Assembly (NCBI GenBank): GCA_023245855.1
Contig: JAHFJL010000001.1
Span: 19,975-83,974 of the forward strand
Length of the DNA stretch: 64,000 bases
Reading direction: 5' to 3'
From: a bacterium
GTDB lineage: Bacteria; Patescibacteriota; Gracilibacteria; Absconditabacterales; Absconditicoccaceae
Shown: piece after piece, positions 16,894-55,860 of the stretch
Numbering within the stretch: the first letter of the stretch is position 1
Layout: every line of letters begins with the position of its first letter
The notes under the pieces: generated by a model
The model's input: only the letters and a program-made list of their open reading frames with translations
Told to the model about the DNA's origin: nothing
Databases searched by the model: none
Program-made: the position numbers and the translations under genes

Positions 16894-17160
16894 GTGTATT
16901 TATAACAATAAAAACAAACATATAATATATAAACTATCACTATAAATATTCAAGATAAGGAATAGATTTTTCATCGTACAAATTTCTACTAAAAACACAC
17001 TTTAACTCATCTTAAATACTAGCTTCCCCATATAATTTCTATTTCTGTCAAAAATAATCTTGATAATTAAAATATGATGTATATAATTGATACGCAAAAA
17101 AAATCTGAACTTTTGTGAATATTTTTTAATGTCGAATTTTTATTTTTTTATGACAGGAAG

Positions 17161-36940: not shown

Positions 36941-36963
36941 CTATCGGTATAAAAGAATAAAAA

Positions 36964-37410
36964 TTATCTGATTTCCGTATAGGTGAACTTCTGGTGTTTT
37001 GTGAATCTAAAATCCTCATAAATCTTCTTGGATTCTTGTATCTTCTCGTCATATAACCTATCTACTTGTTGAACATTCTTTTTGTCATCGTATTTCTGCG
37101 GTTTAATGAGATAACTCGTCAACAATATTAATTTAGATTTTTCGAGGGCAAAAAATATCCTTAAAAAAAAATTTGAACAAGGTATCGAAATTCTGAATTC
37201 ATGGATCGGTCAATCAAGATGCTTAATGTAATGTCAGTCAGGAATCATGTTTGATTGAAGAAAAAAAAATATTGCTTCGTCTATTTTCTTGGACATTTTC
37301 TCAAAAATCTTTTCATCTGTAAGACGTATGATACTTTTGGCAAGCACGGCATCGATGCTTTGATCTATGATATCATGATTGTTTATAATCAATGAATATA
37401 CACTCACCAT
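36964..37410 (-). CDS. Gp49/HigB-like (RelE superfamily) toxin
   Basis: IKHLDGPIHEFRISIPCSNFFLRIFFALEKSKLILLTSYLIKP matches the phage Gp49-like (DUF891) pattern. Lies 23 nt upstream of the XRE-Panacea gene. Confidence 0.6.
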
Positions 37411-37583: not shown

Positions 37584-37614
37584 GAAAAACCTCCGCGTCC
37601 TGGTGCGGCGGAGG
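37584..37614 (-). terminator. Rho-independent terminator (minus strand)
   Basis: 7-bp stem cctccgc / gcggagg; A5 on the plus strand gives a U-run on the minus strand. Separates the macro gene from the toxin-antitoxin pair. Confidence 0.55.
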
Positions 37615-37761: not shown

Positions 37762-38286
37762 TTATATTAATTTCTGATATACTCAATAATCCTTATTTGA
37801 AAATAATACAAATCTAACTTCTTCGATTTCTGGATATAATTCAACAAATCCTCTTACTGTTTCTACTGCGATTTTACTACATTCCTCTATCGGACATCCA
37901 TAAGCGCCCGTACTGATCGATGGAAACGAAATCGTTTTTATCCCATGATCCAATGCGATTTTCAAACTATTTTCGTAACAATGAAATAGATCATCTTTTC
38001 GGTCATCGTTTTTATAATCCGAGAATCTTGGACCGACCGTATGGATCACTCGTTTAGCGGGAAGATTTCATCATACGGTAGCTACTGCTTCACCTGTAGG
38101 CAAGCCTTTGGGATATTCAATTCTTGTAATATTTTGACACGCTTGTAAAATCATTGGTCAGCCTGCACGATGAATTGCTCCGTCTACGCCTCATCATCAC
38201 AAAAGAGTACTATTCGCAGCATTAACGATAGCATCAGTATTTTGAGTAGTTATGTCTCAGAGGATGAGAATAATAGTAGCAACCAT
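37762..38286 (-). CDS. Macro-domain protein (YmdB / O-acetyl-ADP-ribose deacetylase-like)
   Basis: [35 protein letters not shown]...RVIHTVGPRF...ISFPSISTGAYG. Three consecutive TGA (38191-38199) encode the conserved Gly loop. Confidence 0.9.
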
Positions 38287-38304
38287 AAGAGATATGAAGA
38301 TAAA

Positions 38305-40512
38305 TTAATTTTTCCAATGAGATTGAATGTATTTATTGGCTTCACTTATTGACATAGGTTCTGCACTAGTCCCCGCTCTAATATAAAATTCTTCTTTATT
38401 GTTATTATTCACAAAACATGGTCTATCGCTCAGCGATATTTTTATTACCGCAATATCTTTATCGTCAATGTTTTTGATGCTAACAGAAATGAATTGATGA
38501 AACTCTTTTCAAAGAAAATTATTGATGAGTTCAGTAAATTTTAGTACGAATCAATCTTTATTCTGCTTTTTTCACAATGTCTTATAATCATTTTCTAATC
38601 CTAGTATATTACTATTATCGTCAATACCTATAAGTAGAATCCCTCAGTTTGTGTTAAGGAAGGCACAAGTTTCTTTCATTACCTTTATCTCTAATTCTTT
38701 ATTAATCTCATTTCTAATTAGATCCCATCTTATAGATGATTTGAATTCTATCTTCTCTGTTTCTCATTCTTCAATAAGTTCTTCAATATCCATTTCATTA
38801 CTCATTTTTTTTCCACTTTCTATGTTCTCCATGAATTCATTTATCTTGGTCGCTATTTCATTTCTTCTGAATTCTATAAACGATTTATAACTATCTAGCT
38901 TCCATAACTCTTTTTGAGAAGGGATTAGTTGTGAGTCCAATGCTTCCATTTTGCGTTTCTTAATGATATCTTGGAAGTAAACGATTGGCTCTTTGTTGCT
39001 TATTGATTTATTCGTACCTCACGATATAAATGCTAAATTTGCTATTTCATTAATCTCCTTTTGATCATATTTATCTTTCATTAGTGATTTTGGGAAAATG
39101 TGATGGAATTGTATTTTATGCGATTTTCAAATATTCTTATCAGATAAACCCAGTCATGTCTTTCGATCCTTCGCTCCATTAGCTTTCAATACAAAATAAA
39201 GCATTGAGAATAAAGGACTTCTTATTGATTTATACGCAATATCCTCGCTATCAACAATAAACTTTTTAACATGTAATTTTAGTTGATTAATAAGCTCATC
39301 AACACTATTAGTTTTAAACAATATGGATACATCAGCATCCAACAATCATTCGCTTGATCACATACCATAATGTCCTCTCATATGAGCCAAGAAAAATCGT
39401 TTTAGTAATTTTCTTTCATTTTCAGAAGAAAGTTTTTCTTTATTATTAATTGCATATACTGCTAGAGGCAATAATAGGAATGGTGAAGATAGATATCCTA
39501 AATCATTTATTTGTGCGTTATTTCTCAAAAAATCTACAACAAAACGCAATCAGTCCATAACAGCGGGTCGATGCTTCTGGAACGTCTCTTTGTTTATTTT
39601 TGATACGGTCTGAAACTTACTTTGATGTGTAATGAGTATAACCAGCAAACGTATGGTAATGTTGGTATCAACAATATAGTCTGCATCATTTCAGAATTCT
39701 TTAGAAAATATTTCAACTTCATTCATAAATCCTTTCCACTTTGAGGTTATTTGTGCCAATGCCAAATCACTTCATCTCAATTTTATACCTAATGAATTCA
39801 CTCTAACAAAAATTTCCGTCACTTCTTCATATGACATTGATTTATCCAGAACCTGCATTACATATGGATATTCTTGAATTCATTTTAACTTTTGTATCCT
39901 TGCAGAATAAAAATCCCATATATCGTCATCAGAATTTATACCCTTTGGCTTTAAGAGTTCTTTCTCTGTCTTTCTAAATACATCTGATACTGAAATCCGA
40001 CTAGGATTATTCTTCAATGTTTTAGTGGCCACAACAAAAGTTCTTTTTTTAAATTCTTCTTGAATATCATATTTGGCTGTTTCTTCATCTTCTAACTCCT
40101 CGAAATCTTCTGGTATATCAGTCTCGTCATCCTCTATAACTTCTGATAAGGTTCACTCGGGATGATCTAAATTAAATAAAATATCTATTGGTTTTCTGCG
40201 ATACTTTACGATAATTGGTTCTCAGTTTATGACAGCAGATAGAGAAGTGATCCTTTGTTGTCCATCTAATAGTAATTGTTTTTGATTTGTCTGTTCCTCT
40301 GTTGGTCTTACAGCCAACTCCCTTTCATTACCAAATTCATCTGTTGCTCGTACTAATATTGTACCAGAAGGGTATCATCTATATAAAGAATCAATCAAAT
40401 CACGGACACGAGATGATGGCCGAACATATTTTCTTTGCATTTCTGGAAGAGCAAGCTCTCACCTTTTTACCTTATCAACTAAGCCTCTGACGGTAATATC
40501 AACTTTCTCCAT
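38305..40512 (-). CDS. GmrSD-like DUF262-DUF1524 nuclease fused to a C-terminal AlbA_2 (Schlafen-type) domain
   Basis: DUF262: LPEMQRKYVR...YRGYPSGTI...LLLDGQQRITSL. DUF1524 (His-Me finger): HKIQFHHIFPKS...NLAFISGGTNKSISNK. AlbA_2: ETEKIEFKSS...AFLNTNGGILLIGIDDN. I verified all 735 codons line by line; about 18 TGA=Gly and no TAA/TAG. Confidence 0.8.
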
Positions 40513-40597
40513 TAGAATAGATTATCAATAAAAGTCTTTAATATAATTATACGTACTTTAAAATTATTGTCAAATTTAGTAGATAAATAACATTGTA

Positions 40598-42094
40598 CTA
40601 AATCATCTTTTCTACTTCATCCAAACCTTTTTGAATCTGACCTTCAATTTCTTTAATCTGACCAATCAATACTTTTGGATTTTCATACTTCACTGCTATA
40701 TATTCTATCTTTTTATACTTGGAGATACTGAGGTCGTAATTATTTTTTTTAATCTCTTCCTTATCTACTCGGAACCATTTATCTCACTTGCTAGGCTCAT
40801 TATCATACTTACGATCAGTTACACATTTTGCAAAATTAGCTAATACATCAGGAATATTGTTATCGTTGATTGGAGATCTTTTGTCATCCAAACTAAAGCC
40901 ATCGGCTTGCAGATCATAGAACCACACTTTTTTTGTCTCATCTCATTTAGTAAATATAAGTACGGCTGTACTTACTCCAGCGTATGGTTTAAATACTCAT
41001 GATGGTAAACTAATAACTGCTTTGAGGTCTGTATTTTCTAACAATAGTTCTCTCAATTTTTTGTGAGCGTTGGATGAGCCAAACAAAACTCCGTCTGGAA
41101 CGATTACTCAACATCTACCCCCTACAACTAATTTATTATAAATTAATTCCATAAACAATAATTCTGTTTTCGTTGTTCCAAGTGTAAAATCAGGATTAAT
41201 ATCTCCTTTATCTATACTCCCCTTAAACGGTGGATTCATCAAAATCACATCAAATTCTGGAGCATGAGAAAATTGCTTCCCTAAGGTATCTTGATATTTT
41301 ATATTTGGTGTGGCAATACCGTGCATGATACAGTTCATCAATGCAATTCTAACCATCGTACTATCAAAATCAAACCCCGTCAATCCATCAGACTTTAGTC
41401 TTTTCCGATCTTTTTCATCAAGTAAATCTGCGGGATAATGGGTTCCGAATTCATCAGAAAAAAGAGCATCTTTTGAGGTATTTTGTTCTAAAATATGCTT
41501 GTAGGCATTGATCAAAAATCCTGCGGTTCCTGCTGCTAAATCAGCTATTTTATCGTGTTTATTTGGATTAACGACATCCACTATCATTTGGATGATATGT
41601 CTTGGTGTACGGAACTGTCCGTTTTTTCACGCACTTGCGATTTCATTCAAAAGATATTCATAAATATCTCCTGAAGTATCTTCGTTTTGTTCTGTAATAT
41701 GAAGATTTTCTAGAATATTTACCGCAGTAACTAACATGCTTGCTTTGGGAATAACGAGATTTGCGTCTTTTAGATTTCCTGCAAATCATTCTTCTGTATG
41801 CAATGTTTTGATAAATGGAAAAACAGCATCTCTTACATACGTAAACATTTCCTCTGCAGGCATTTGGATCCAGTGGCTTCGTCTAAGCTTTTCATTGCCC
41901 TCAAAAAGTGAGGCATATTTAAAAGAAGAAACTCTGTTTGCTTTAAGCACATTTTGTTTGTCTAATTCGTCCAATCTTTTCATGAAAATAAGAAAAGAAA
42001 TCTGTTCTATAGCAGTCAATGGATTAGCAATCCCTCATGATCGAAAGGTATTTCGTAATGAGTTAATCTGTGATTTAAGTTCGGGGTTGAGCAT
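40598..42094 (-). CDS. hsdM: Type I restriction-modification system, N6-adenine DNA methyltransferase subunit
   Basis: HsdM N-terminal domain ([23 protein letters not shown]), SAM-binding region ([10 protein letters not shown]), and catalytic NPPF (ILMNPPFKG). I verified the frame to TAG at 40600-40598. Confidence 0.92.
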
Positions 42095-42098
42095 GAGA

Positions 42099-43004
42099 TT
42101 AGTGTTTGAAAGATAAAACAAAATTGAATATCTGGTCAAAATCAAAATCAGGATATTTTTTTCATAAAACAGGATCGAGATCATTTGCTATCTGTATTTT
42201 CAAAGCATCATAGTGATCATCAATAGTATATCCACTCTCTGATTCTGCTACTTTGTGAGCAATAAGATCTTGAATGCTAACAAAATCAAAGCCTTGCTGC
42301 TGCATATACCAGATATCAAAGAAATCTCTGATCGCTGGTAATTGACGTGTCAGCGCAGCTCTCATCTTCTCTGCCATCATCTCTTCCAAAGACAGGCACG
42401 TGATACTCATCTCATCAAAGATGGGCTCTTCAAGAATCGGATCAATAAATACAGCATGGACTGTTCATGTTGTTGATGGCAAGTATTGTTTGCTGGTATA
42501 GGTCACTTCTATTTTGATTGTCTGTTGTTGCTGACTAAACATACTCGTGTAGCTAATCACGTATTTGAGATAGGTGTATTCTTTGGTTTTTAAAAAATGG
42601 TTGCCTTGTGCTCTTTTGTGATGATATTCATCAGCATTCAACTTCCGATTCATAATTTTGCAAACTTTTTTCATTTTTTCTCTCAGATGTTGAGCAAATT
42701 TCTCTCTTTTTCCATTGGTATTTACTAGAGGATCTTCAATACTTATAGAAAAATCTAAATCTTCACTCAGACGAAAATAGGGATAATATACCTTATTGAG
42801 GCATGTTCCTCCTTTGAAGGTTATCTCTGGGATGTTGATGGAAATCCGTTGAAGAAGTATGGTCAGATAAAAATCTTTTTCAAATTTTTCTTTGTCAAAA
42901 TTGGCTGTATTGCTTTTTTCAAATATCGATAAAAGATCTTCCTCGTTTTCTATAGGAAGCGCTGTTCACAAAAGTGTATCAATACGATCTATCAGCGTGG
43001 TCAT
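42099..43004 (-). CDS. AbiEii/AbiGii-family nucleotidyltransferase toxin
   Basis: ITFKGGTCLNKVYYPYFRLSEDLDF is the hallmark motif. Fragments 42162-42410 and 42465-42674 are in frame. The stop lies 4 nt before the hsdM start. Confidence 0.8.
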
Positions 43005-43633
43005 AGTTCCAAAAATTGTTTTACTAAAATTTGTACTCTTTGGCTACAATATTTCTGAGAAAGAGAAATAAGTTTGGTTGGAGAGATTATTTTCTTTTTG
43101 ATCTCTTGATAAATATCTTCGACATATTCCATCTTTCCATCGTTTTCATCAATCATCTGGATAAGCGCTCTTTCACTAGTCATACGATTGTACGTCCCAT
43201 ATCACTGAGCATCCACTTTTTCTATCCCTCGAAAAAATGACGGTCTGACCTGACGAAAAATAAACGTATATCCGGCTATATTTCTCTCGCCACGGGTACT
43301 GGCATTGTATACTGTAATCTTGTTCGCAAGCTGCTGGGAAAAATGATACTGATTGTACAGATACATTCCTCCTATGGAATACAATTTATTTTTTCCATAC
43401 TGTGCTAAGATTGTCGTAGCCAGCAGTCATTTTTTTTTGCTTGAGAGCAGATTGAGATAGAGTTCTCACCTTAGGATAGGAGAGAGTAATCAACGACTAC
43501 ATAAAGTATCTATTCTATATTTAGGAGCGAATTTATCCAAAATTTTTTGCAACAGAGAAATTTCTATGAATGGTTTATCATAGATTCTGAGTTTTTCTTC
43601 TATAGTTTTAAACTGATTGATCGGTATATTCAT
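42989..43633 (-). CDS. AbiEi-like antitoxin / transcriptional regulator
   Basis: 214-aa ORF immediately upstream of AbiEii and overlapping it by 16 nt. SERALIQMID segment is typical of AbiEi. Fragments 43001-43183 and 43202-43384 are in frame. Confidence 0.6.
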
Positions 43634-43780
43634 TTTTATTATTGTCATCTAAATCCAGCAATATTGTGTTTTTTTGATGACAGATTGCAAGAGGAAATTT
43701 GCATCTTATTTTTCTAATGCGTAAACAATATTAAAAATAAAAAAAAACAGTCGAGAACTGGAATCTTGTGGCTAGTGATG

Positions 43781-43835
43781 GAAGAATACTAAACTTCGGA
43801 ACAGGTATGGTAGTTACCGAAGTTTAGTATTCTTC
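43781..43835. repeat. Perfect 19-bp inverted repeat with 17-nt loop
   Basis: gaagaatactaaacttcgg - N17 - ccgaagtttagtattcttc, in the 380-nt gap between the Abi_C gene and abiEi. Confidence 0.8.
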
Positions 43836-43860
43836 GACGGGGAATCAAGTATTTGCAAGT

Positions 43861-44009
43861 ATATGTTAGATTTTCTTCGTTTTTTTAACATATTTATGAG
43901 ATATGTTAGATTTTGGAGATAATGTATACCCAATACCTATAAAATAATTTTATAGATATTTGCGGATTTTGATGAATAACTATAAAAAAATTAGGGATAT
44001 GTTAGATTT
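43861..44009. repeat. Three direct copies of ATATGTTAGATTT (operator-like)
   Basis: Copies at 43861, 43901 and 43997. The first is also half of the palindrome ATATGTTA-N16-TAACATAT. Confidence 0.7.
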
Positions 44010-44013
44010 CTTA

Positions 44014-44994
44014 CTATTCTTTAATGTATATTTTTCTTAATCTCACTATTCACTCTAGGGATAATTTAAATAGTTTGTTTCAAATTTTTATAGCATGATC
44101 ACCAGGAAAACTTTTTATAATTTGTATTAGCTCATTAAATGATTTTACTTCTGCAGGCAATGGGAAATTGGATATTTCTTTCTTTTTAATTTGATATTCA
44201 TACGAATCATTCAAAAACCAAGTTAACGTCTTTACAGAATTTAACATCAATAATGCATGATGTTTTAGCGGTTTAATTCTTATTTTTCATTCTTTATCTT
44301 TCAATTTTCTATGTCTATCTCACATAGAATTACATAATCTATCTATCGCATCTACTATTTGAGAAAATCACATTAACATTTGTTTAATTAGTTGATCCGC
44401 ATGTCAGTCAGGCACTAGATTTAATAAATTCTTAATTTTAACAAAATCTTTTTTAAGATCAGCACTTTCTCATAAAGATTCTCAAGTAATTTTTATATGT
44501 AATCATTCAAAAAACTCCTCTAAAAATGTAGATAGAGTGCCGATTGCTCAATCATAGTCTGTTTTCTTAATTTCATCTTCTGCTTTTTTTAAATGTTTTC
44601 CAATTTCCTGAGAAAGATCAATTTCTGGCTTTATCTCTAAGTCATCAGATTTTTGCTCTAATAGTTTCATTCATATTTTTTTTCATTCCTTTAATCTAGC
44701 ATCCGGAAAATCTATCTGTTTTAAATAACCCATAGCAATCTTGGTTTCAATATATTCAATGAGCTTTATTATGCTCTTGGCAATCATTTGATTACTTTCT
44801 AAAGTCCAAAAACTTCTCATTCTACTAGCTTTTGATTCTCCATTCTGGCTATATTTTTCGTCATAGATATTGATACCAACATCATCGTGGAAAAAATCTA
44901 ACATTGTTCTATTTGAAAAATCAAGAACATATCATCCTTTCATTTGGAATCATTGCTCTAATATCTGTTTATCTATTGATGATAGATCTGCCAT
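44014..44994 (-). CDS. Abortive-infection family protein (Abi_C-like C-terminal domain)
   Basis: 326 aa, every codon checked, about 19 TGA=Gly. C-terminal IDRLCNSMGDRHRK resembles the Abi_C motif (RN..G.aHG). Starts 6 nt after the hsdS stop. Confidence 0.5.
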
Positions 44995-45000
44995 TATTCC

Positions 45001-46134
45001 TTATAATTTAAAACTACTCTGCATTGTCGCCTGATACAGTTCCTCCAACTTCGCTAATGCTTGCTTATGCTTATCAGTACTAGCTTGGAGCTTGGTGATG
45101 ATGTCGGCAAATTTTTGCTGAAGAGAAAGCGGCGGAAGTGGAATATTTAAATTTCTTAAAACATCTAAGCTTAAAAATCATTGCGCTCATCATTTTCAAT
45201 TATTTCATAGTAAGGTTGTCTTAAATTGTTGAAAATTCAATAGGTGGGTTAAATAATATCATATTAAATTATTTCTATTTGGTTTAAATAATGCAACGTT
45301 TTTCATACTAAAAGGGAACTTAAATGTATTTAATACCGCTGTTCACATATTAACTCAAATATTTGTATATAATACATCTTCATATTCAGGATTACATCTT
45401 TGATATATGATTTCATGAACTTCGGAAGATACATAATCTAGATCAGAAAGATCAAATTGGAACTGTCTAATGTTTTTTCATGTTATAAACATGATTCATT
45501 TTTTTAATCTTTCTGGTGTGTCGTGGGTTCAATCAGTAATTTTATTACAGATACTTTTCATTTTCCTCACTTCCCATCCTTTCTCATTCGTCATTGGATC
45601 GCCAAACATCTCCAAAAATATCGCCTTCGTAAGTTCGTTAGTCTTGGTGATTGCTTGCTTTTTGAGGTCGATGAGGGACTGGAGTTTATCAAGTTTATCG
45701 ACGATGGTGCGTTGGGTAGCGAGAGGTGGGAGATTAATCTTTGTGTTCATGAATTCTGGTTTGGTTATATGTACCATAGTTGCTCCATGAGTTCTGCTCT
45801 CAAAATTTTTAATAAGAGAAAGCAACAAATAATAAAAGTATTTCTTATCAATAATTTGTTTATTTTGGATTATCTTAAAAATATGTTGGTTTAACCATGC
45901 GTCACCTCTATTTCGTATAAATGCTCACAAAGATCAAGATCGCGCGAATAACAAATCTCAATCTTCAACTAAATATTTTTTATCAATATTTTTTGAAGAA
46001 TAATTAAAAATAGTATCAGAATTATTTAGATTCTGTATTCTTATAATAGGCAATCCTTCCATTTCTCGCTCTGTTGGCTTAAAGGCTCTACCATTAATAT
46101 AGTCTGCTATTTCTCAAAGTTTATAAGTTTGCAT
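45001..46134 (-). CDS. hsdS: Type I restriction-modification system, specificity subunit
   Basis: Two target-recognition domains. They are separated and followed by the conserved helices PPLATQRTIVDKLDKLQSLIDLKKQ and PLPPLSLQQKFADIITKLQAS. Confidence 0.88.
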
Positions 46135-46141
46135 ATTATTA

Positions 46142-48109
46142 TTATTTTTTTAATGATGCTAAAGATTTGCTTATTTTTTTATCTCATTGAGTTTTGTTTT
46201 CTATTTTACTATGTTTACATATGGATTCATATGTAGTTTCTAGCTGTTGTCTTAAATATTCCAAACGTGTTCTATTCTCCTCAATAATATCTGACCATTT
46301 TCTACAATATACAGATACGTTATTGGTTGGAACCTTATGTATAAGTCATCTATCCTTCTCTCCCCAATTTTGATGGGATTCTATCAATTGATTGATTTCT
46401 CCACTGGTATCAAATTTATCTCAAACTAAGAAAAATTTCCAATCATAGTTGGATCAATTAAAGCGAGGCTCTTTTGTTATTACATTTAGATAATTCTTCA
46501 CCTGATCTACCTCTTTTCTTCATAGACTTATTTTAGGGTGTTTCAATTCAATCACAATATTCTTTACGTTTCATCATCTCCTGTCTTGTCTGCACATAAA
46601 AATATCCAACTCTTTGTTTTTATGCTCATTTTCGATATAAACTTTCTCATCGATCCCATAAAGAACAAACAAAAATTTCCTTAGATTCTGTTCAAAGTCA
46701 GGTTCTGCTGCTCAGATTAAAAAGTATTCATCTCAAAATAATCGATAATGGCTCTCTACCAATTTTTGCAAATTATGTACTTCATCTGCCTTTAGTTCCT
46801 CATCAAAAACATATTGCTCTAAAAACTTTATTACATTTAATCTCTCGTTTATTATATCAATAGTCCTAATTATATTAGATAGTTTTATATCTTTAAGTAA
46901 GGTACCAAACCTTTCTTTTTCCATGTCAGAAAGGGCCAAAACGTTATCTATAATATCAAAAAGTTTGTGACTATTTCCTTCTTCCAATATCGCCGATATT
47001 AATCTAATAAATATTTTTCTTTGGTCGTCTCATAATTTGGTGAATATCTTAGGCTCAACCAGATAAATTTTTTTTATTGTTTCTTTTATAATTCCTGTTT
47101 TCATTTCTCATACTATGGAATCTTCCTCATTAGTAATATCTTCGATATTGGTGTTAACATAAGTCTCGGCTAACGATTCAATGAATGGTCTTCTAAATTC
47201 ATTTAATTGTTTGTTTAGCTGAACCATAAAATCTTTGAAAGTTTCTCTATTATTTTGACTATTCTGTCCCTCAAATAAGAGATTATCTCATCCATCATTT
47301 AATATTTGCTTATCAAAAAAAGATGACTGAATAAATACGCTATGGTGGAAATCATCGGATTGTCTATTTAAGGAAGTTCATTCTTTTAATATTTCCTTGT
47401 CTGCAGAATTTATAAAATAATTTTTAGATTCTTCCTCTATGAGTTTATCTTCCCATTTTATAAATTTTATATCAAATTTTATCTTGTCTATAATTAAAGA
47501 ACTTAGCTTCTCCATAGATATGTACTTTTTATATTCCAATTCTTTCTTATTTATACGTATTGTAATTCCTTTCAATAATAAAATCCAAGAAAATCTAGCG
47601 ATTAAATATTTTTCTAAATCGGTTTCCATGAAGAATTTACTTACGCCAACATCTTCGAAACTAACTTTGGTTCCTGTATACTTACTTTTCTTAGAATTTT
47701 TATCTAAAATGTCATATTTGCTTAAATCTCTAGAAGATACTTTCAATTTTATATATCATCCCTCTTGTCTTGATTCCCACGTTGCAGAAGAAGAAAAACA
47801 GAAAAATGTCAGTCTTCATACTCAATCTTTGCCGAAGACATCTGACTTATTGAGAGATCTATTCTTCTTTGAAAAAAGAAAAACATCAAAAGTCGTAGAT
47901 AAATCTTTCTCAGAAAATCCTCCTCAATCATCAATTATTTCAAATTTAGAAATATATCAAGTATCATCAAAAACATAATTGATATCGATATTCTTTGCTT
48001 GCGCATCAATTGAATTCTCTATATATTCTGAAATCGCTTTATCGGGAGTGTAGTCCTTTAGTCTCTTTCTTATTCAATCATTAGTTACAATTAAATTTTT
48101 TTGTGCCAT
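46142..48109 (-). CDS. GHKL (HATPase_c) ATPase fused to a C-terminal PD-(D/E)xK nuclease-like domain
   Basis: N-terminus: AISEYIENSIDAQAKNIDI...FEIIDDGGGFSEKDL...FGKDGVGRLTFF (Bergerat fold motifs). C-terminus: ELDIFMCR...NIVIELKHP...VDQVKNYL (D..ExK, Shedu/DUF4263-like). 655 aa verified, about 19 TGA=Gly. Confidence 0.65.
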
Positions 48110-48135
48110 AATAGCAATTTACAAACTAAATATAT

Positions 48136-50139
48136 TTATTTATCTTTCTGACTTAAGATAAATTGATAGATATTTTCAGCAACTTCTTTAGCCTCAGCAG
48201 ATAAATCTTCATAATTGTTTATATATTTAATTGCGGTTTCATAAAATTTAACCTTATCTCGTATAGTTCATCATTTGGCCTTATATCTTGTTTTCATCTT
48301 TTTTACCAATAATTTTTTTTCTATGAATTCACCTAACTTAGTCTTTCTGTGATCTCCTATTCTTGTTTTAAATTCCACAGACTGATTTCAACATTTTTTT
48401 TCTAATTCCGTTACGGCATCTTTTAGCACGTTCAATGACAATAGATTTTCTATTTCTCTCACTGGTAATTTATTATATCTCTTTTCTAGTTTTTCTTTTA
48501 ATTTTTCTTTCCTCTCTTTTTTTCTATTTTCTCAATCTTCATCTATAATCAAAAAAGACTTACCACATAATCTATCAATATTAACTTGTTCATGTCAATT
48601 TTCATCATCTAAGAAAGAAAAATGAGTAATATTATTACCTCAATATTCAACAAAACAATAATCAATGTCTTGTTTAACTTCTATAAAATTTGGATTCTCT
48701 TTTTTTTTCTGCTTTTGATAAAGATCAAGATATCTACCTAAATACAATCTATCAGTAATACCTTCGACCCATATTGTGCTATTAGCAATAAATATAGATG
48801 ATTTTTGCACTCAGAGTTCTAGCAATATATTTTCATCACCTGACTTAATATTTTCTATGATAAATTGTTTGTTTTCTGTCTTTCTAGCCTTAAAAATTGA
48901 TATATTGTCAAAGTCCAGGGTCAGATCCAAAAAGTTATTTGAATGTGTTGTTATAAAAAACTGATGCCCAATAAAATCAGAAGTTTTAATCAAAACTTCA
49001 ATGAGTTTTCTTTGCATTCAAGGGTGTAAATATAATTCTGGTTCTTCTATAAAGAAAAGCCCGTTAGTGCATTCAAATAGCGGTAATGTAATTGTTATTA
49101 ACGTTTGTATTCAGTCTCACAGATCATAAATAGCCCTATCGTCTTCGTCTCATATTTTTATATGTAATATTCCATTTTCTTTATCTCGTTTGTCTTTATT
49201 AACATCTCTTCATAAAATATTATTATCCTTTGATATCAAAGTAATATCCTGCCCATCGAATAAATTCTCCTTCAAAAATTCCTGATATTTCTTGATTTTA
49301 TTTCTTTGATCTTGTGTTCACAAAAGCATCTTTTTTACTATTTCGTTAAGCTTTTGTCAAGAATTTATATCCACTTTATAGTCTTTCCCAGCTGTTGTAA
49401 AATAATCTTTTTTTACTTTTTCTTCAAATAAGTCATTATTAATCAAACCTCTCAAGGAATCTACTACTTTGGATGTTACGTCTGATTGAGTTCAACGTCA
49501 AGAGAACATATCTTCCACCCATTTTACTAAAGGTCATCTTATGTTATTAACAGATCTTAAGGCTGGAGTATAATTTTTTGTATAATCAACAAATTTAAAT
49601 AAAGCTAATTCATTAAGATTCTTTATAATATCTGATGCACTAGAAATTTTTTCTTTTAGTGAATTAATGAATTTAACATTTTCCATATAGATAATTCATC
49701 AACTTTGTTTTTGAGGATCACATAAAAGTATTTTATTCAACGTATTTTTCATTGATAATATATCTTCAATATTCTTTTTAGAAAAAAATATATCAAAATT
49801 TCAAGTTAAAGTTGTTTTATCTAAACTGAAAGATCACATATTAAAATTTCAAAATCAAGCATTTTGTTGGTCTCGAACTTGAAGCAAGGATTTTATTAAT
49901 TCATTTAAAGAAGTAATAAAGTCTTTAAAATTGAATGTTAATCTTGTTGGTATAAATTTAAACTCTTCTATCTTTGAAATTTCCCTCATAAAGCGACTCT
50001 TTCCAGAATTATTTGGTCATATAAAAATATTTATTTTTGATAAGCTATTTAATTCTTGCAATCTATTCCCATCATTTCAGAGAAAATCCTTAAAATTTTC
50101 ATTTTGCGGTATTTGAATTTCTTTGAAAATATAGGTCAT
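48136..50139 (-). CDS. OLD-family / PARIS-like ABC-type ATPase fused to TOPRIM (DUF4435-like) nuclease domain
   Basis: Walker A IFIGPNNSGKSRF, signature-like LGDGIQTL, Walker B GLFFIEEPELYLHP, and H-loop FFITTHSNNF. TOPRIM-like region: TIWVEGITDRLYL...FVEYGG...LIIDEDG. 667 aa verified line by line, with 25 TGA=Gly. Confidence 0.75.
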
Positions 50140-50149
50140 ATTGCAACTT

Positions 50150-50245
50150 TTACAAACTAAATATCTCTACAAACTCTCCCGCTGAAGACGGGATAGACAT
50201 CCTTTCTTCGCTTCCTTCTGCTTACGCAGCCAATCAAATGCTCAC
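50150..50245 (-). pseudogene. Degenerate duplicate of the last ~25 codons and stop of hsdR
   Basis: The first 28 nt are identical to 51030-51057, and the last 43 nt are about 80 percent identical to 51063-51105. A 25-nt hairpin-containing insert interrupts it. Confidence 0.7.
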
Positions 50246-50277
50246 CTATTAAATATTGGTTTGTCAAGCAAATTCTC

Positions 50278-50306
50278 TTGCAAAATAAGGTAGATATGAG
50301 TATAAT
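50278..50306 (+). promoter_or_regulatory. Near-consensus sigma70 promoter on the plus strand
   Basis: TTGCAA (50278-50283), exactly 17 nt, then TATAAT (50301-50306). Confidence 0.45.
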
Positions 50307-50312
50307 AATACT

Positions 50313-50382
50313 GGAATTGAAGCTCTTATCGAACTGTGGTCTTTATGGCCTGCGTTCCCTTACGGGATAGATAAGGGTTTTT
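50313..50382 (+). ncRNA. Putative ~70-nt small RNA (promoter-to-terminator unit, no ORF)
   Basis: Bounded by the promoter above and by the hairpin ccctta-cgggataga-taaggg plus T5 (50357-50382). Convergent with the DUF3800 gene, whose stop is at 50389. Confidence 0.3.
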
Positions 50383-50388
50383 CCTTTA

Positions 50389-51021
50389 TTATAATTTTTG
50401 TCTGGGTCGTTGTTGGACATTGATTTCTCTATGAGATATAAAACGACGAAAGTCATTTTTACTTTTACTGTCGCCATAATAGCGATGTATTACTCAGCAT
50501 ACATAATCTACAAGTTGGACAAGATTGTCCGTATGTGAACGGTGCATAGCTACTTTTTTAATCCTCTTACAATTTTTAGTATTCAGTTTGTTTCTTAAAT
50601 ATTTTCATAAGGCATATTTAAAACCTTCGGATCATGTTTTATCTATAATAACGGTAGCATTTTCTATTTTATCTTTTGCGTTTTCGAAAACATATCAACA
50701 TATACATTTATAAAAAGAATCTTTATACTGAAATCATTTTCATGTTACGATTTTCTTATTTAAGACAAAACCATGATAGAAAAAATTGTAATTTGCTACA
50801 GCTTCTAAAAACAATTGTCTGATTTTGTCAGAGTTTTTTTTAAAATGAAATTCAAAATTATCGTGGAGTCAAAGCTCTCTTCTTAATAAATCTATTCTTT
50901 GACTACATGCAATTGCTTCATCGTGATCGTTGAAGACAACTAATGCTATAGAAAAAAATGGACTTGATCATTGATCAAACTTAAAACCCGAATCTCCACT
51001 TTCATCTATATAAATAAGCAT
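50389..51021 (-). CDS. DUF3800-family protein
   Basis: MLIYIDESGDSG... and C-terminal HRSHTDNLVQLVDYVCGVIHRY are DUF3800 hallmarks. 210 aa, 9 TGA=Gly. Starts 8 nt after the hsdR stop. Confidence 0.7.
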
Positions 51022-51029
51022 ATATATGA

Positions 51030-53729
51030 TTACAAACTAAATATCTCTACAAACTCTATCAATTTCTTCGCTTCTTCCTGCTTAAATAATCTATCAAACG
51101 CTCACATGCCAAAGGTTGTCTCAAACACGGGACTATAAAAGTCGTCGTAAGTAATATGCTTCTTCTGAATAATCAATGACTTCACGATCTGCAAAAACTT
51201 GATCTGCGCAGAGTTGAAGTTATTCCCATGGATATGCTGTTCAAAGATTTGATTTACCTCTTGTTCCCAACCAGGCAAAGTACCTTTACCTAACGCCACC
51301 TTGATTAACTGTTCAAAGCTTGCTGTAGGTCTCCCATAGGCTTTCCTCAAATTAAGGACGTTGATATGATACTCGGTATTATTGAGCATCGTTTCAAGTT
51401 CTATAATGTCGCCTTGTGTTAACTCTTCGTTGTTAAGTATCTTCTGGATAGCTTTGGAACTCTTGGCATAGTCTTCCAACTGATGCACAAAAAGTTCCCG
51501 ATACTTATCAGAAGCCATCTTTTTGCCTTCGGTGTATTCTATCCATCTCCTTTCGATGACGGTATCTTCGATATCTGTGATCATAATCTCCGGTTTGGTG
51601 GTGTCCTTGTATTTCATCAGTCAGGTAAACTCTTTTTTTAAGTCTTGGATCTTATCCAAAGATATTTCTTTCCAGTACTTAGGACTAAGTACTTCTTTGA
51701 TAGAAGTTTCTTTATCTTTTACTTTGCTGATATTCCTAGATAGGGCGTTAATATCTGAAGCTATCTTATTTACCAGCACTTTTGTTTCATCGCCCTTTAC
51801 TAAGGCGACTACAAACTGTTCATTCTTAATTAAAAATCTAAGTTCATCAGCACTATGTTTGTCATAGTATCTTACTAATGGTGCAAGTTTTTGAAGCTGT
51901 TCATATGGATTAACTGCCATATTATCAAAAATAGATTCTGACATTACATTATCAATCAAATCTTTGTGAGCGAGTAGTTCGTCGTTTGGTTTCAATCCTT
52001 TGACAAAAATCAGTATCTCTTTTTTTGTCTTCTCGAAATACTTAGTATCTTGTCTATTCTCAAATAGCTTAAGTTGTTCTATCTTAAGTTCAAAGTATTT
52101 TTGTTGGAGCGATATTCATTGTTGGTTTGGTGGTAGGAACTTGTGTGCTTCATCGAAATTGAGCGCGAAATCGATAATCAGAAAATCTTTTTTATCTTCT
52201 CCAGGACCGTAGACATTAGGACGCAACCTCGTTCACCTTCCTACCATCTGCCAAAATTTAGCTTCTGATAATACCTTTTTGGCGAAAACGAGATTTACTA
52301 ATTCAGGAACATCTACGCCCGTATCTAGCATATCTACTGATATAGCGACTCTGTATTTCTTCTCTGTCTTATATTTTTTGAAGTCTTTAAGTAATTGGTC
52401 AGCCCTTTCTACATTGGAAGTAATGACTACGGAAAATTTGTTTAAGTGAGGATAGAGTTCCTCGAATGTTTCCTGTAAGTGTTCGGCATGTTTTTGATTC
52501 ATCGCAAAAATAATAGTTTTCCCCGGAAGTCCGTCTTCACCTTTATATGCTTGTTCCATAAATTCTCTGATGATAGCTCTATTAGTATCTTTGTTGTCGA
52601 TTTTTTTGCCGATCTCAGAACCCTCGAAGTTATAGTCCTCAGGATTTTTTCATTCTTTGATAAGTTGTTCTCTGAGGTCTTTCGGTAATTGTCTTCATTT
52701 GATTCCTTGAATCTGAAATTGTGTCCTTGCCATCAAGACTCTGTACGGCACGAGATATCCTTCCTGTACCGCCTCATCGAGTCAATAATTGTAGGTCGGT
52801 CATTTTTCATGACAATCAAATTCCTTGTACGTACTTCTATCGATAAAATCCACGGGCGTAGCGGTAAGTCCTACATGGTAGCAATCGAAGTGGTCAAGAA
52901 TAGCTCTCCATTCTCCATAAATTGATCTATGTACTTCATCCACGATAATCATATCAAAATATCCACTACTGTATCTGTCCAAATAATTAATCATTGTCTG
53001 ATAATTCGCTGAATAGAGCCTCGCGTTATCATCAGTTTTTCCCGTCTCTATTTTAGTTTTTGGCTCCTCCGGGAAATATACTTTAAATCCATCGTCAAAT
53101 GCCTGATCCCTCAAAGCTGTCCTGTCTGTGAGAAATAATATCTTTTGCGCATTATGCGTTTTCAACATCACATCAATCAATCCCATAGCGGTTCTCGTCT
53201 TTCCGCATCCCGTTGCCATCACAAGCAAAAATTTTCTTTTACCGACACTTATTCATTCTGTAACGGATTTGATTGCTGCTATCTGATAGTGTCTACTTGC
53301 TATATCTGGATCCACTTGTTGACTATTTGGTGATGTTTGAGTCTCATTGAGAAATTTGAGTCTATGTAAGTCATGCAGAGTGAAAAATGTCCTGACTTTT
53401 CTTGGTGATTCTTCTTCAGCAGAATTATAAAAATGAATTTCTTTTCCATTAGAAAGAAAAATAAACGGTTGAAATCACTGTTTATCTTTGAGAAGGATAG
53501 AATATTCCAATGCTTGATATTCTCCATCTCTTGGTGATCTGCTAAACTTTTTTGCTTCGATAATAGCGAGAACTTTTCCATCAGTATCTAACAAAGCATA
53601 GTCTGCAAATAAGGTAGTTCAATTTCTATCTATAGGAAACTCTAGGACTACTTGCCTATGATTATTTATATCCCAGCCAGCTTTCTTGAGTTTGGTATCT
53701 ATCAATAAACGAGTCTCTTTTTCGAGCAT
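51030..53729 (-). CDS. hsdR: Type I restriction enzyme, R (helicase-nuclease) subunit
   Basis: N-terminal nuclease motif ADYALLD...AIIEAKK. Helicase motifs VMATGCGKT, DEVH, LTATP, DMLDTGVDVP and QMVGRGTR. Long C-terminal helical domain. Fragments 51102-51617, 51621-51995, 52233-52559 and 52800-53228 are all in frame with ATG 53729. TAA stop at 51032-51030. Confidence 0.92.
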
Positions 53730-53926: not shown

Positions 53927-55240
53927 TTAGTTTAAAGTTTGAATCCTTCCTAAATATCTCGCTGCATAATATACAATCATCGACTGCAATCCCACATACA
54001 CCAACACCAAGAAGAAGATAAGCTCGCCTGGCAATTGCGTATAGATCAGCAATATCACGTTCACCACCATCGCTGCGACACAGGAAACAATCCAGTACAT
54101 ATAATCGGTCTTGTTGAATATCTTCGCCAGCATCGGTACCCTATGCGCATAGAAAATCATCGCTGTACTAAAGATATTTCGGAAGATCCCTCGGCTCGCT
54201 ACTGCGCCGATATCGCCGTTGAAATATGAGAACAAGCTCACATAGATCGCGAAATTGATTACGAGGAATACTACGAGATTTTGCAGGATGCTGTTGTATC
54301 AGACTTTCTTGAGCAGCAGCACATTGGCTACGAATGCGAGGATTGTGAGCCGATAGAAAATATGGTTGATGTTTGCAAAACTGCCTACATGTCATATGTA
54401 ATAGATGATAAGGATTGTGACTAGTACGATATTGAAAAGCTCTAGGATCTGCTTTGTAGCGCCCGGCATCGCCGCCAAGAAACCGTATAACTGCTCTATC
54501 CAAGCTGAACGGAAATATTTTTTTTCTGTAGTGATTCTCTCGCCTGCGAGGATACGTCTGACCGAGATATTCTTTTTTTTCTCGTCGGATTGCGGCGTGA
54601 ATTGGAAGACTTTGTAGATGAGGTAATACAGCCCCGTCAGGAGCAATGCATTGATGGATAATGAGATATATACATTTTTTATCTGATCGAAAACGAAGAG
54701 GAAGATGGTTCCCAACGAGAGGATCCCTAATTCATATCGGAGATACTTTTCAACGTCTTTGTGGATATTGACGATAAAAATTATGAACGCGGTGATTGCT
54801 AGATGCATCACCCGCAGCATCGCAAACACGTTCCCCAGCGCTGCTCGTCATCCAAACGCAAACGCTGTGATTAGGATAAATAATATGGAGAGATAGAATC
54901 AAAGTTGAAAGACCGCTTTCCCGTCTTGATATTCAGCGAGAGATGAGATTATCCGTAAAACGAGGTTGAGCGAAAGTATTCATAATGCGGTGTAAGTTGC
55001 ATCCATTCAGAAGTAATTAAGCATCCCGACCAGCCCTGCGAGGATGATGATCCATGCGACGTAGAGCGAATATTTTTGCAGGACTTCAGATCATTTGACT
55101 TTGATGGTCTGGGTCGCTCCGTAATATCCAAAAAATATCCCGATAAATATCATCGGTATCAATGCAAGATATCGTAGTCCTATCCCATAGAAGAAGAGCA
55201 CGAATCAGATGACTACTGTTGAAAGGAGCAATAAAGCCAT
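53927..55240 (-). CDS. Polytopic integral membrane protein (437 aa), function unknown
   Basis: Fragments 53927-54241 and 54392-54829 plus the 5' part up to ATG 55240 form one frame joined by TGA. About 10 or more hydrophobic segments. Confidence 0.6.
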
Positions 55241-55291
55241 ACTAAATAAACTAACAACTAAAAGTGAAAAACTAAAAGTGGTGGTATTTTT

Positions 55292-55651
55292 TTAATATTC
55301 TTTTTTCGCTTTGGATGTTTTGATAGTAGCTACTAACATTCTTAATATTTCTTCTCATTTGCCATGTAATGTTTGATACTGTTGTTGATCTATATATAAT
55401 GTATCTTGTAACAAGTCCAACCGATATAATGTTTCATTTGCTTCCTTAAGTGCAATACTCATCTTATTGATAAAATCTGCTTTTGACTGTCCAAACTCTG
55501 CTTCACGTATCATAGCTCAAACACTTGTTCATGATCTTATAAGCTGTTTGCTTATAATGAATTCTTGTTTTTCTTTGGAAAGATGTTTATAGATTTTCAC
55601 TATTTCAATACTGAACTCATAACTTTTCGTTTTAAGTATACTTTCACCCAT
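55292..55651 (-). CDS. Four-helix-bundle protein (23S rRNA intervening-sequence protein family), second copy
   Basis: QLIRSGTSVGAMIREAEFGQSKADFINKMSIALKEANETLYRLDLL is the family signature. Confidence 0.75.
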
Positions 55652-55726
55652 AATACTAGTTAAAAACTAAAAATGAAAAACTAAAAGTGTTTGTATTTTT
55701 ATGTATAATATTCTCATCATTATTAG

Positions 55727-55860
55727 TTTTTCACTTTTCACTATTTATTTATCAAAATATTCCATCGTTTTTCACTTTTCACTATTCACTTTTCACTATT
55801 TATTTATCAAAATATTCCATCGTTTTTCACTTTTCACTATTCACTTTTCACTATTTATTT
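55727..55860. repeat. 55-nt tandem repeat, about 2.4 copies
   Basis: Unit tcacttttcactatttatttatcaaaatattccatcgtttttcacttttcactat, starting at 55731, 55786 and 55841. Intergenic. Confidence 0.85.

What the first reader, a model, noticed from the sequence alone, without database searches (positions are those of the whole stretch)
37762..40512. GmrSD-like DUF262-DUF1524 enzyme carrying an extra AlbA_2/Schlafen-type domain and coupled to a macro-domain gene
One 735-aa protein combines three parts. The first is a DUF262 NTPase-like domain (LPEMQRKYVR, DGQQRITS). The second is a DUF1524 His-Me nuclease (HKIQFHHIFPKS ... NLAFISGGTNKS). The third, after a coiled linker, is an AlbA_2 DNA-binding domain (EKIEFKSS ... 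AFLNTNGGILLIGIDD). Eighteen nt downstream lies a canonical macro domain ([24 protein letters not shown]). GmrSD-type enzymes are normally two-domain type IV restriction enzymes. The added Schlafen-like sensor and a translationally coupled ADP-ribose-binding or hydrolysing partner hint at ADP-ribosylation-linked control, comparable to DarG or phage ADP-ribosyltransferases. I do not recognise this combination as described.
Basis: partly seen in the sequence, partly recalled or inferred. Interest (0 to 1): 0.7.

Follow-up and report, generated by a model that had tools for sequence, protein, structure and literature searches.

The report
BrxU-like restriction enzyme fused to Schlafen RNase
This is a single-gene anti-phage defence protein, a BrxU/GmrSD-type restriction enzyme carrying a Schlafen RNase module, of a class already catalogued in 2025-26 as pSlfn7; the macro-domain gene next to it is an ordinary housekeeping-type neighbour at the edge of a defence island, not a partner.

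Summary
A 735-aa ORF (38305..40512, minus strand) carries GmrSD_N/DUF262, GmrSD_C/DUF1524 and SLFN_AlbA_2. A 174-aa macro ORF follows after 18 nt.

The core is collinear with BrxU (PDB 7P9K) and belongs to a very large two-domain family. The C-terminal module is a Schlafen RNase lobe with the catalytic motif Ex4ExK intact (E584, E589, K591). That motif is conserved in all 11 long-form homologs.

The DUF262-Schlafen composition is already published as class pSlfn7 (109 members). One short member, EcoSlfn7, was shown to protect E. coli from phages. The window protein is a long-form member that keeps the His-Me DNase.

The proposed macro coupling is not supported. No macro gene was found in 80 loci of the GmrSD family or beside 8 other fused homologs, and none of 80 background macro loci carries a DUF262 gene. 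In a related genome the macro ortholog follows the same two backbone genes, with only a small NYN gene where the window has a ~15.5-kb defence island.

The macro protein is a YmdB/MacroD-type deacetylase. Verdict: new member of a known kind, with low-to-moderate interest.

The parts
38305..40512 (-). 735-aa gene: BrxU/GmrSD-type core (DUF262 + helical linker + DUF1524) fused to a C-terminal Schlafen RNase module. Long-form member of class pSlfn7.
   Evidence: ORF under code 25. Pfam. PADLOC HEC-05 E=1.3e-38 over aa 4-563. BrxU 7P9K profile hit E=2.9e-21, collinear.
39751..40488 (-). DUF262/GmrSD_N NTPase domain (aa 9-254), with motifs LPEMQR, RDLIDS (cf. BrxU RLFDS, S42) and DGQQR.
   Evidence: Pfam E=1.3e-28, or 7.4e-33 with the corrected Trp residues. 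Motifs invariant in alignment A1. Aligned to BrxU residues 3-112.
38851..39132 (-). DUF1524/GmrSD_C His-Me finger nuclease (aa 461-554): H465-x2-Q468-x-H470-H471-IFPK ... N488 ... N492 ... T500-N501.
   Evidence: Pfam 27.0 bits against a cut-off of 23. Motif residues invariant in 30 family members and in all 11 long-form fusions. Aligned to the BrxU 'vdHIYPK' region.
38353..38763 (-). Schlafen (SLFN_AlbA_2) RNase module (aa 584-720). Catalytic motif E584-x4-E589-x-K591 at nt 38740-38763, followed by GG-x-L-x-IG-x-DD.
   Evidence: Pfam E=2e-18. phmmer hits to the SLFN11/8/14/12/5 catalytic lobe. Motif definition from the paper. Conserved in all long-form homologs and in EcoSlfn7.
40546..40573 (-). 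Perfect sigma-70 consensus promoter-like site (TTGACA-16-TATAAT) in the 85-nt gap between hsdM and the 735-aa gene.
   Evidence: 12/12 match. Sequence read directly. A consensus match only; function not shown.
37762..38286 (-). 174-aa YmdB/MacroD-type macro-domain gene (O-acetyl-ADP-ribose deacetylase type). A backbone neighbour, probably co-transcribed by read-through.
   Evidence: Pfam Macro E=2.5e-41. NCBIfam NF001664 221.7 bits against a cut-off of 200. 55-71% identical to ubiquitous bacterial and archaeal YmdB-like proteins. Synteny.
37585..37614 (-). GC-rich hairpin (CCUCCGC...GCGGAGG) followed by U5, about 150 nt after the macro stop. Terminator-like.
   Evidence: Sequence and fold. Missed by the pattern scan because the loop exceeds 8 nt. 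Function is inferred.
38305..53729 (-). About 15.5-kb defence island, with the 735-aa gene as its last gene. Contents: HsdR, DUF3800, OLD/GajA-like ATPase, HATPase_c_3 protein, HsdS, AbiJ-like, AbiEi/AbiEii, HsdM.
   Evidence: Pfam and PADLOC. The block is absent between the orthologous backbone genes and macro in L009.
53927..57040 (-). Backbone genes A (55859..57040) and B (53927..55240), both membrane proteins with no Pfam hit. Their orthologs lie directly upstream of the macro ortholog in L009.
   Evidence: blastp 59% and 70% identity to L009 ORFs 174-866 and 908-2275. Pfam: no hit.

Best explanation
The 735-aa gene is a self-contained, single-gene anti-phage defence protein with its own promoter.

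Its N-terminal ~565 residues are a complete BrxU/GmrSD-type (PADLOC HEC-05) type IV restriction enzyme. This comprises a DUF262 ParB-like NTPase that binds and hydrolyses nucleotide and controls the enzyme, a helical linker, and a DUF1524 His-Me finger DNase that cuts (modified) invading DNA. A helical linker joins this core to a Schlafen RNase module with the catalytic Ex4ExK motif intact. By analogy with characterised bacterial and human Schlafens, this module would cleave tRNA and shut down translation.

The protein is therefore a long-form member of the published DUF262-Schlafen class pSlfn7, with two nuclease effectors on one chain.

The downstream macro gene is a YmdB/MacroD-type O-acetyl-ADP-ribose deacetylase that belongs to the chromosomal backbone. 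A ~15.5-kb defence island has filled the slot upstream of it, so the last island gene now abuts it. Macro is probably transcribed by read-through, without being part of the defence mechanism.

Shown here: the ORFs, domains, motif conservation, island context, lack of conserved pairing, and synteny. Inferred: all enzymatic activities, substrates and the trigger.
For: - Domains: Pfam; PADLOC HEC-05; HEC-05 equals BrxU according to the paper read.
- A profile of the family hits only BrxU 7P9K/7P9M (E=2.9e-21), collinear over profile positions 3-98, 172-359 and 469-561.
- The DGQQR, QR and His-Me residues are invariant in 30 family members and in all 11 long-form fusions. Ex4ExK and GG..GV.D are conserved in all of them.
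- The C-terminal module aligns to the catalytic lobe of SLFN11, SLFN8 and SLFN14.
- Literature: pSlfn7 = GmrSD_N.SLFN_AlbA_2, 109 members, defence score 0.76. EcoSlfn7 reduces T7 plating 538-fold. Ex4ExK is essential for tRNA cleavage in SLFN11.
- Own promoter: 12/12 consensus match.
- Macro is not a partner. There is no macro next to fused homologs P0002, P0003, P0009 and P0021. There is none in 80 GTDB loci of the family within +-6 kb, including 4 further fused forms. None of 80 background YmdB-type macro loci carries a DUF262 gene.
- L009 has the order A-B-NYN-macro, whereas the window has A-B-[15.5-kb island]-macro.
- The macro passes the NCBIfam equivalog cut-off and has no PADLOC hit.
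Against: - No biochemistry exists for any long-form member. The only tested pSlfn7 (EcoSlfn7) lacks DUF1524 and shares only motif-level similarity with the window protein, so transfer of function is by class, not by orthology.
- GmrSD_C scores only just above its Pfam cut-off (27 against 23 bits).
- The AlphaFold model of the proxy P0003 was of low confidence and Foldseek gave no significant hit.
- The 18-nt same-strand spacing, the absence of a terminator, and the recurrence of 'GmrSD-type gene ... macro' in L011 (with a non-orthologous GmrSD) leave a small chance of a lineage-specific link.
- Only one related genome (L009) shows the near-empty slot.
Confidence: 0.75

Rival explanations
1. 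The macro protein is a functional partner of the GmrSD-Schlafen enzyme. It might read or remove ADP-ribose to gate the nuclease, act as a DarG-like antidote, or counter phage ADP-ribosyltransferases.
For: - Same strand, 18-nt gap and no terminator between the genes; consensus promoter upstream and a terminator-like hairpin after macro.
- In L011 a 71%-identical macro lies downstream of a different GmrSD-type gene plus a 211-aa unknown. In L008 it lies downstream of an MmeI-type R-M gene plus a 97-aa unknown.
Against: - The pairing is absent in 4+4 other fused homolog loci, in 80 family loci and in 80 background macro loci.
- Synteny with L009 makes macro a backbone gene.
- It is of the YmdB/MacroD equivalog type rather than DarG type, with no PADLOC hit.
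- No ADP-ribosyltransferase domain is found in any neighbour.
- More distant macro relatives sit among metabolic genes.
- Short gaps also join unrelated island genes.
Confidence: 0.07
2. The Schlafen/AlbA_2 module is not a nuclease here. It would be a nucleic-acid-binding or sensing domain, for example for ssDNA or RNA, that recruits or regulates an ordinary type IV restriction enzyme whose only effector is the His-Me DNase.
For: - Pfam's historical annotation of AlbA_2 is as a DNA-binding domain.
- The module is a single lobe, whereas mammalian Schlafen N-domains have two.
- The core alone (~567 aa) is by far the commoner and evidently sufficient form.
- The fused forms are polyphyletic in the core tree, as expected for an accessory module.
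Against: - Ex4ExK and the downstream acidic GV.D motif are conserved in all 11 long-form homologs despite only 20-47% identity in this module. That points to catalysis rather than mere binding.
- The same motif is essential in SLFN11, and bacterial Slfn5 is a phage-activated tRNase.
Confidence: 0.15
3. The gene is a decaying or chimeric ORF, an artefact of assembly or of choosing the wrong genetic code, rather than a real three-domain protein.
For: It is fragmented under table 11. Public database copies are mistranslated at 24 of 735 positions.
Against: - The ORF is uninterrupted under code 25.
- Full-length collinear homologs at 40-77% identity occur in several phyla that use the standard code.
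- The recoding is independently supported and published for Absconditabacterales.
Confidence: 0.01

Closest known systems
pSlfn7 (DUF262-Schlafen fusions; EcoSlfn7 of E. coli UC4224), Taboada et al., Nat Microbiol 2026 / bioRxiv 10.1101/2025.07.24.666596
   Same: It has the same Pfam composition that defines the class (GmrSD_N + SLFN_AlbA_2). It has the same Ex4ExK motif and the same defence-island or hotspot location. The class table also lists long forms with the same layout, e.g. NC_013159.1_200 with domains at 13-229 and 603-750.
   Different: EcoSlfn7 is 589 aa, has no DUF1524/His-Me motif, and shows only motif-level similarity to the window protein. The window protein keeps a complete BrxU-like nuclease core. 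The paper does not annotate or discuss DUF1524 in this class, and the mechanism of pSlfn7 was not determined.
BrxU / PADLOC HEC-05 (GmrSD-family type IV restriction enzyme; PDB 7P9K, 7P9M)
   Same: The similarity is collinear over DUF262, the linker and DUF1524. The DGQQR, RLFDS-like (RDLIDS with S42) and His-Me motifs are shared.
   Different: BrxU has no Schlafen module and is BREX-associated. Here the gene follows a type I R-M/Abi cluster. Sequence identity is low, detectable only at profile level.
The ~567-aa two-domain GmrSD-core family of Patescibacteria, DPANN and many other phyla
   Same: It is 60-64% identical over aa 1-565, with at least 495 hits among GTDB species representatives.
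   Different: These proteins end at about residue 567. Only 7 of the top 120 database hits and 4 of 80 GTDB loci carry the Schlafen extension, and those are scattered in the core tree.
YmdB/MacroD O-acetyl-ADP-ribose deacetylases (for the neighbour gene)
   Same: The macro passes the NCBIfam equivalog NF001664 above its cut-off. It has the canonical N-x6[10 protein letters not shown] and STGAYG motifs and is 55-71% identical to homologs in bacteria and archaea.
   Different: Nothing notable. It is not a DarG-type antitoxin macro domain: no PADLOC hit and no DarT nearby.

Membership tests
GmrSD/BrxU-type type IV restriction enzymes | N-terminal DUF262 (ParB/Srx-like) domain with QR and DGQQR nucleotide-hydrolysis motifs | tested here: met
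   Pfam GmrSD_N E=1.3e-28, or 7.4e-33 with corrected Trp residues. LPEMQR and DGQQR are invariant in A1. Aligned to BrxU.
GmrSD/BrxU-type type IV restriction enzymes | C-terminal DUF1524 His-Me finger (HNH-like) nuclease motif | tested here: met
   Pfam GmrSD_C 27.0 bits against a cut-off of 23. H465, Q468, H470, H471, N488, N492 and N501 are invariant. Collinear with BrxU 472-575.
GmrSD/BrxU-type type IV restriction enzymes | NTP-dependent cleavage of modified (e.g. glucosyl-hmC) DNA | not testable with these tools
   Requires biochemistry with a correctly recoded protein.
pSlfn7 (DUF262-Schlafen defence proteins) | Pfam composition GmrSD_N + SLFN_AlbA_2 on one polypeptide | tested here: met
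   Class definition in the paper's supplementary table.
pSlfn7 (DUF262-Schlafen defence proteins) | Schlafen catalytic motif Ex4(E/D)xK | tested here: met
   E584-TEKI-E589-F-K591. Conserved in 11/11 long-form homologs and in EcoSlfn7. Motif as defined.
pSlfn7 (DUF262-Schlafen defence proteins) | Location among defence genes | tested here: met
   Type I R-M, AbiEi/Eii, AbiJ-like, OLD/GajA-like ATPase and DUF3800 lie within 15 kb upstream; a Panacea-antitoxin pair lies downstream.
pSlfn7 (DUF262-Schlafen defence proteins) | Close homology to the experimentally validated member EcoSlfn7 | tested here: not met
   BLASTP finds only 30% identity over 70 aa in DUF262. EcoSlfn7 has no GmrSD_C hit. 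Membership is at the level of class (domain composition), not orthology.
pSlfn7 (DUF262-Schlafen defence proteins) | Phage defence phenotype / tRNA cleavage | not testable with these tools
   Needs expression of a recoded gene and phage challenge.
YmdB/MacroD macro-domain deacetylases (neighbour gene) | Equivalog-level HMM match and catalytic motifs | tested here: met
   NF001664 221.7 bits against a cut-off of 200. Pfam Macro E=2.5e-41.
Macro-coupled defence or TA systems (DarTG-like) | Adjacent ADP-ribosyltransferase (DarT-like) and a DarG-type macro | tested here: not met
   No ART domain in any neighbour. The macro has no PADLOC match.
Macro-coupled defence or TA systems (DarTG-like) | Conserved co-occurrence of the two genes across homologs | tested here: not met
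   The pairing was found in 0 of 8 other fused homolog loci, 0 of 80 family loci and 0 of 80 background macro loci. L009 synteny. Single exception: L011, with a non-orthologous GmrSD.

The most novel reading that the evidence does not exclude
The long-form pSlfn7 proteins, which combine a complete BrxU-like type IV restriction enzyme with a Schlafen RNase, could be a distinct two-layer defence. The DNase would act first on modified phage DNA. The Schlafen tRNase would fire as an abortive-infection backup when the restriction core is engaged, stalled or inhibited by a phage anti-restriction protein (a 'guarded restriction enzyme'). The published class lumps these with short forms lacking the DNase and has not studied them. 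A weaker variant of this reading: in Absconditabacterales the YmdB-type macro gene is habitually read through from whatever defence cargo sits upstream, and so contributes to countering phage ADP-ribosylation.
Probability: 0.2. Interest if true: 0.55.

Novelty: new member of a known kind. Interest (0 to 1): 0.3.

Why it matters
The finding adds a candidate-phyla-radiation (Absconditabacterales-type) long-form example to the recently defined bacterial Schlafen defence class pSlfn7. It also points out that a subset of that class keeps an intact BrxU-like His-Me DNase next to the Schlafen RNase. The published classification did not separate that subset and it has not been tested.

The negative result matters too. 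The appealing ADP-ribose link is a positional accident at the border of a defence island, so it should not seed a hypothesis about a new system.

There is also a practical point. Public copies of this protein are mistranslated at 24 positions (code 4 used where the genome reads UGA=Gly and CGA/CGG=Trp). Any recoded expression construct must correct for this.

Tried and rejected
1. The genome-contig scan with the single 735-aa protein found nothing because the patterns were too specific. It was repeated successfully with alignment A1.
2. I tested whether the 211-aa gene between the GmrSD and macro genes in L011 is a detached Schlafen module. It is not: no similarity to the window protein and no Pfam hit. 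The L011 GmrSD is itself non-orthologous.
It was therefore used only as a background sample.
4. Wider flanks around the L008/L174 macro ortholog showed no further synteny with the window.
The proxy P0003 gave a low-confidence model (pLDDT 60.9, pTM 0.47). Foldseek against the PDB gave no significant match; the top weak hits were SLFN12 and SLFN14 at E about 0.25. This route is inconclusive and not used as evidence.
6. Rfam found nothing in the gap between macro and the downstream gene.
7. Pfam with window DNA references failed because the tool translates with table 11.
8. I considered a DarTG-like or SirTM-like macro operon and rejected it, because no partner enzyme is present.
Full report
**1. 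The observation**

With the standard bacterial code the region contains only short fragments. A straight translation shows in-frame TGA codons at conserved glycines, for example 'LL***GVDGAIH' and 'FIS*GTNKS'. Treating TGA as sense more than doubles the total length of long ORFs in the window.

Under code 25 there is a 735-aa ORF at 38305..40512 (-) and a 174-aa ORF at 37762..38286 (-). They are 18 nt apart and in the same frame, exactly as the finding states.

Pfam places four domains:
- GmrSD_N (DUF262) at aa 9-254, E=1.3e-28
- GmrSD_C (DUF1524) at aa 461-554, 27 bits against a gathering cut-off of 23
- SLFN_AlbA_2 at aa 584-720, E=2e-18
- Macro at aa 21-140 of the second protein, E=2.5e-41

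**2. A second recoding**

The family alignment shows that the window protein has Arg at six near-invariant Trp columns. All six are CGA or CGG codons, whereas CGT and CGC sit on conserved Arg columns.

I made codon-level alignments of eight ortholog pairs from related loci. Window CGA/CGG codons pair with TGG, CGA or CGG in 24 of 29 cases and never with AGA, AGG, CGT or CGC.

[quoted passage not shown] So the organism is very probably of that lineage, and the true protein has Trp at residues 31, 55, 172, 315, 372 and 450.

The database copies P0001 and P0121 are the same DNA translated with code 4. P0001 is wrong at 24 of 735 positions and P0121 at 10 of 174.

**3. What the 735-aa protein is**

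PADLOC matches aa 4-563 to HEC-05 (E=1.3e-38). The paper that defined HEC-05 says its representative is 99.2% identical to BrxU (10.1101/2024.01.29.577857).

A profile of the family hits a single solved structure, BrxU (7P9K/7P9M, E=2.9e-21). The match is collinear over three segments and includes the His-Me region, HHIFPK against vdHIYPK.

The two-domain core of about 567 aa is a very large family:
- Database hits are 60-64% identical across Patescibacteria and DPANN archaea.
- At least 495 GTDB species representatives carry a relative.
- The QR, RDLxDS, DGQQR and His-Me residues are invariant.

The C-terminal 150 residues align to the catalytic lobe of mammalian Schlafen N-domains (SLFN11, 8, 14, 12 and 5). 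They carry E584-x4-E589-x-K591, which is the Ex4ExK motif described as essential for tRNA cleavage.

This motif and the following GG-x-L-x-GV-x-D are conserved in all 11 long-form homologs I could assemble: seven from the protein database and four from GTDB genomes of Chloroflexi, Bathyarchaeota, Deltaproteobacteria and Sphingomonadales. That holds although the module is only 20-47% identical among them, apart from the near relative P0002 at 69%.

The fused forms are a minority, 7 of the top 120 hits and 4 of 80 GTDB loci. They are scattered in a neighbour-joining tree of the core, which suggests repeated gain or loss of the module. That tree has no support values.

**4. Is the architecture new?**

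No. Taboada et al. (bioRxiv 2025; Nat Microbiol 2026, PMC13056530) catalogued 5,930 prokaryotic Schlafens in 55 domain compositions.

Class pSlfn7 is 'DUF262.pSlfn', that is Pfam GmrSD_N.SLFN_AlbA_2. It has 109 members and a defence score of 0.76. EcoSlfn7 from E. coli UC4224 reduced T7 plating 538-fold.

I retrieved EcoSlfn7 (WP_028985442.1, 589 aa, in a P2-like prophage hotspot). It has DUF262 and Slfn but no DUF1524, and shows only motif-level similarity to the window protein.

The class table also lists long members with the window's layout, for example domains at 13-229 and 603-750. DUF1524 is not annotated there.

The window protein is therefore a new member of a known class. It belongs to a long-form subset that keeps the DNase and has not been separately described or tested.

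**5. The macro gene**

It passes the NCBIfam equivalog NF001664 for O-acetyl-ADP-ribose deacetylase (221.7 bits against 200). It has no PADLOC hit. It is 55-71% identical to YmdB-like proteins throughout bacteria and archaea.

Physical linkage is real:
- A 12/12 sigma-70 consensus lies upstream of the 735-aa gene.
- No terminator lies in the 18-nt gap.
- A GC-rich hairpin with a U-tract lies about 150 nt after macro.

But there is no overlap and no Shine-Dalgarno sequence. Gaps of 6-26 nt also join clearly unrelated island genes.

Comparative tests all speak against a functional pairing:
- Four fused homologs at 51-77% identity are followed by Fic, Exo_endo_phos, an unknown gene, or an opposite-strand gene.
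- None of 80 GTDB family loci has a macro within +-6 kb.
- None of 80 background YmdB-type macro loci has a DUF262 gene.
- More distant macro relatives lie among metabolic genes.

The most telling comparison is with locus L009, where the macro is 71% identical. There the orthologs of window genes 55859..57040 (59% identity) and 53927..55240 (70% identity) lie directly upstream of macro, with only a small NYN gene between them.

In the window that slot holds about 15.5 kb of defence genes:
- HsdR
- DUF3800
- an OLD/GajA-like ATPase
- a HATPase_c_3 protein
- HsdS
- an AbiJ-like protein
- AbiEi/AbiEii
- HsdM
- the GmrSD-Slfn gene, last in the block

Macro is thus a backbone gene at the border of a variable slot.

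One observation is not fully explained. In L011 the slot holds a different, non-orthologous GmrSD-type gene plus a 211-aa unknown. In L008 it holds an MmeI-type R-M gene plus a 97-aa unknown. In each case the last cargo gene ends 24-25 nt before macro. I read this as a defence hotspot. A lineage-specific role of macro is not excluded, but it is unlikely.

**6. Mechanism (inferred)**

This is a single-chain defence protein with two nucleases. The BrxU-like core is NTP-regulated and cuts (modified) phage DNA. The Schlafen module cleaves tRNA, causing translational arrest. Which nuclease is primary, and what triggers the Schlafen module, is unknown. No long-form member has been studied.

**7. Dead ends**

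- The AlphaFold model of the proxy P0003 was poor, and Foldseek gave no significant match.
- The window protein itself could not be submitted for structure prediction.
- The metagenome scan did not reach the close macro clade.

**8. Verdict**

The architecture is already catalogued as pSlfn7, and the macro coupling is an accident of position. Interest is low to moderate. It rests on the untested long-form (DNase plus RNase) subset and on the recoding caveat for anyone expressing the protein.

Noticed in passing
whole window; shown in 38305-40512, 37762-38286, 53927-57040, 17074-18183: The genome uses two reassignments: UGA=Gly and CGA/CGG=Trp. CGA/CGG codons sit on conserved Trp columns and interchange with TGG in orthologs, never with other Arg codons. 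This matches the published Absconditabacterales code. Public database copies (P0001, P0121, P0002) are translated with code 4 and are wrong at both kinds of position (24 of 735 residues for P0001).
   Followed up: yes
window 50320-50384 (+): Rfam gathering-level hit to DUF3800-IX RNA (RF02968, 50.2 bits against a cut-off of 36.8). It lies just beyond the 3' end of the DUF3800 gene (50389..51021, minus strand), on the opposite strand.
   Followed up: no
window 40598-53729 (-): A type I R-M operon (HsdR 51030..53729, HsdS 45001..46134, HsdM about 40598..42094) is interrupted by embedded defence-type genes: DUF3800/PDC-M04A (50389..51021), an OLD/GajA/AriA-like ATPase (48136..50139), a HATPase_c_3 + HSDR_N_2 protein with no PADLOC match (46142..48109), an AbiJ-like/Abi_C protein (44014..44994) and AbiEi/AbiEii (42099..43648). 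This is an example of defences nested inside an R-M system.
   Followed up: partly
window 36263-37410 (-): Candidate toxin-antitoxin pair just downstream of macro. A 148-aa protein with no family hit is followed after 23 nt by a 225-aa HTH_3 + SocA/Panacea-domain protein.
   Followed up: no
L011 2379-5244; L008 2585-6528: In two related genomes the macro ortholog (66-71% identical) is again the last gene after defence cargo, with a 24-25-nt gap. The cargo is a non-orthologous GmrSD_N+GmrSD_C protein plus a 211-aa unknown in L011, and an MmeI-type R-M enzyme plus a 97-aa unknown in L008. Neither small unknown protein has a family match. The slot upstream of macro looks like a defence hotspot in this lineage.
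   Followed up: partly
window 37585-37614 (-): An unusually GC-rich hairpin (CCUCCGC/GCGGAGG) plus U5 in a ~32% GC region, about 150 nt after the macro stop. It is probably the terminator of the GmrSD-Slfn/macro transcript. The region has no Rfam match.
   Followed up: partly
window 17074-18183 (+); L001 10152-10739; L008 6654-7124: A RhuM-like gene in the window (57-72% identical) has homologs next to the fused GmrSD-Slfn homolog in L001 and next to the macro ortholog in L008. A 69%-identical Fic gene also links L001 and L008. The same accessory genes recur in different orders in these islands.
   Followed up: no
window 55292-55651 (-): A 119-aa 23S_rRNA_IVP (four-helix-bundle) protein gene lies between backbone genes A and B. 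It is absent at that position in L009.
   Followed up: no
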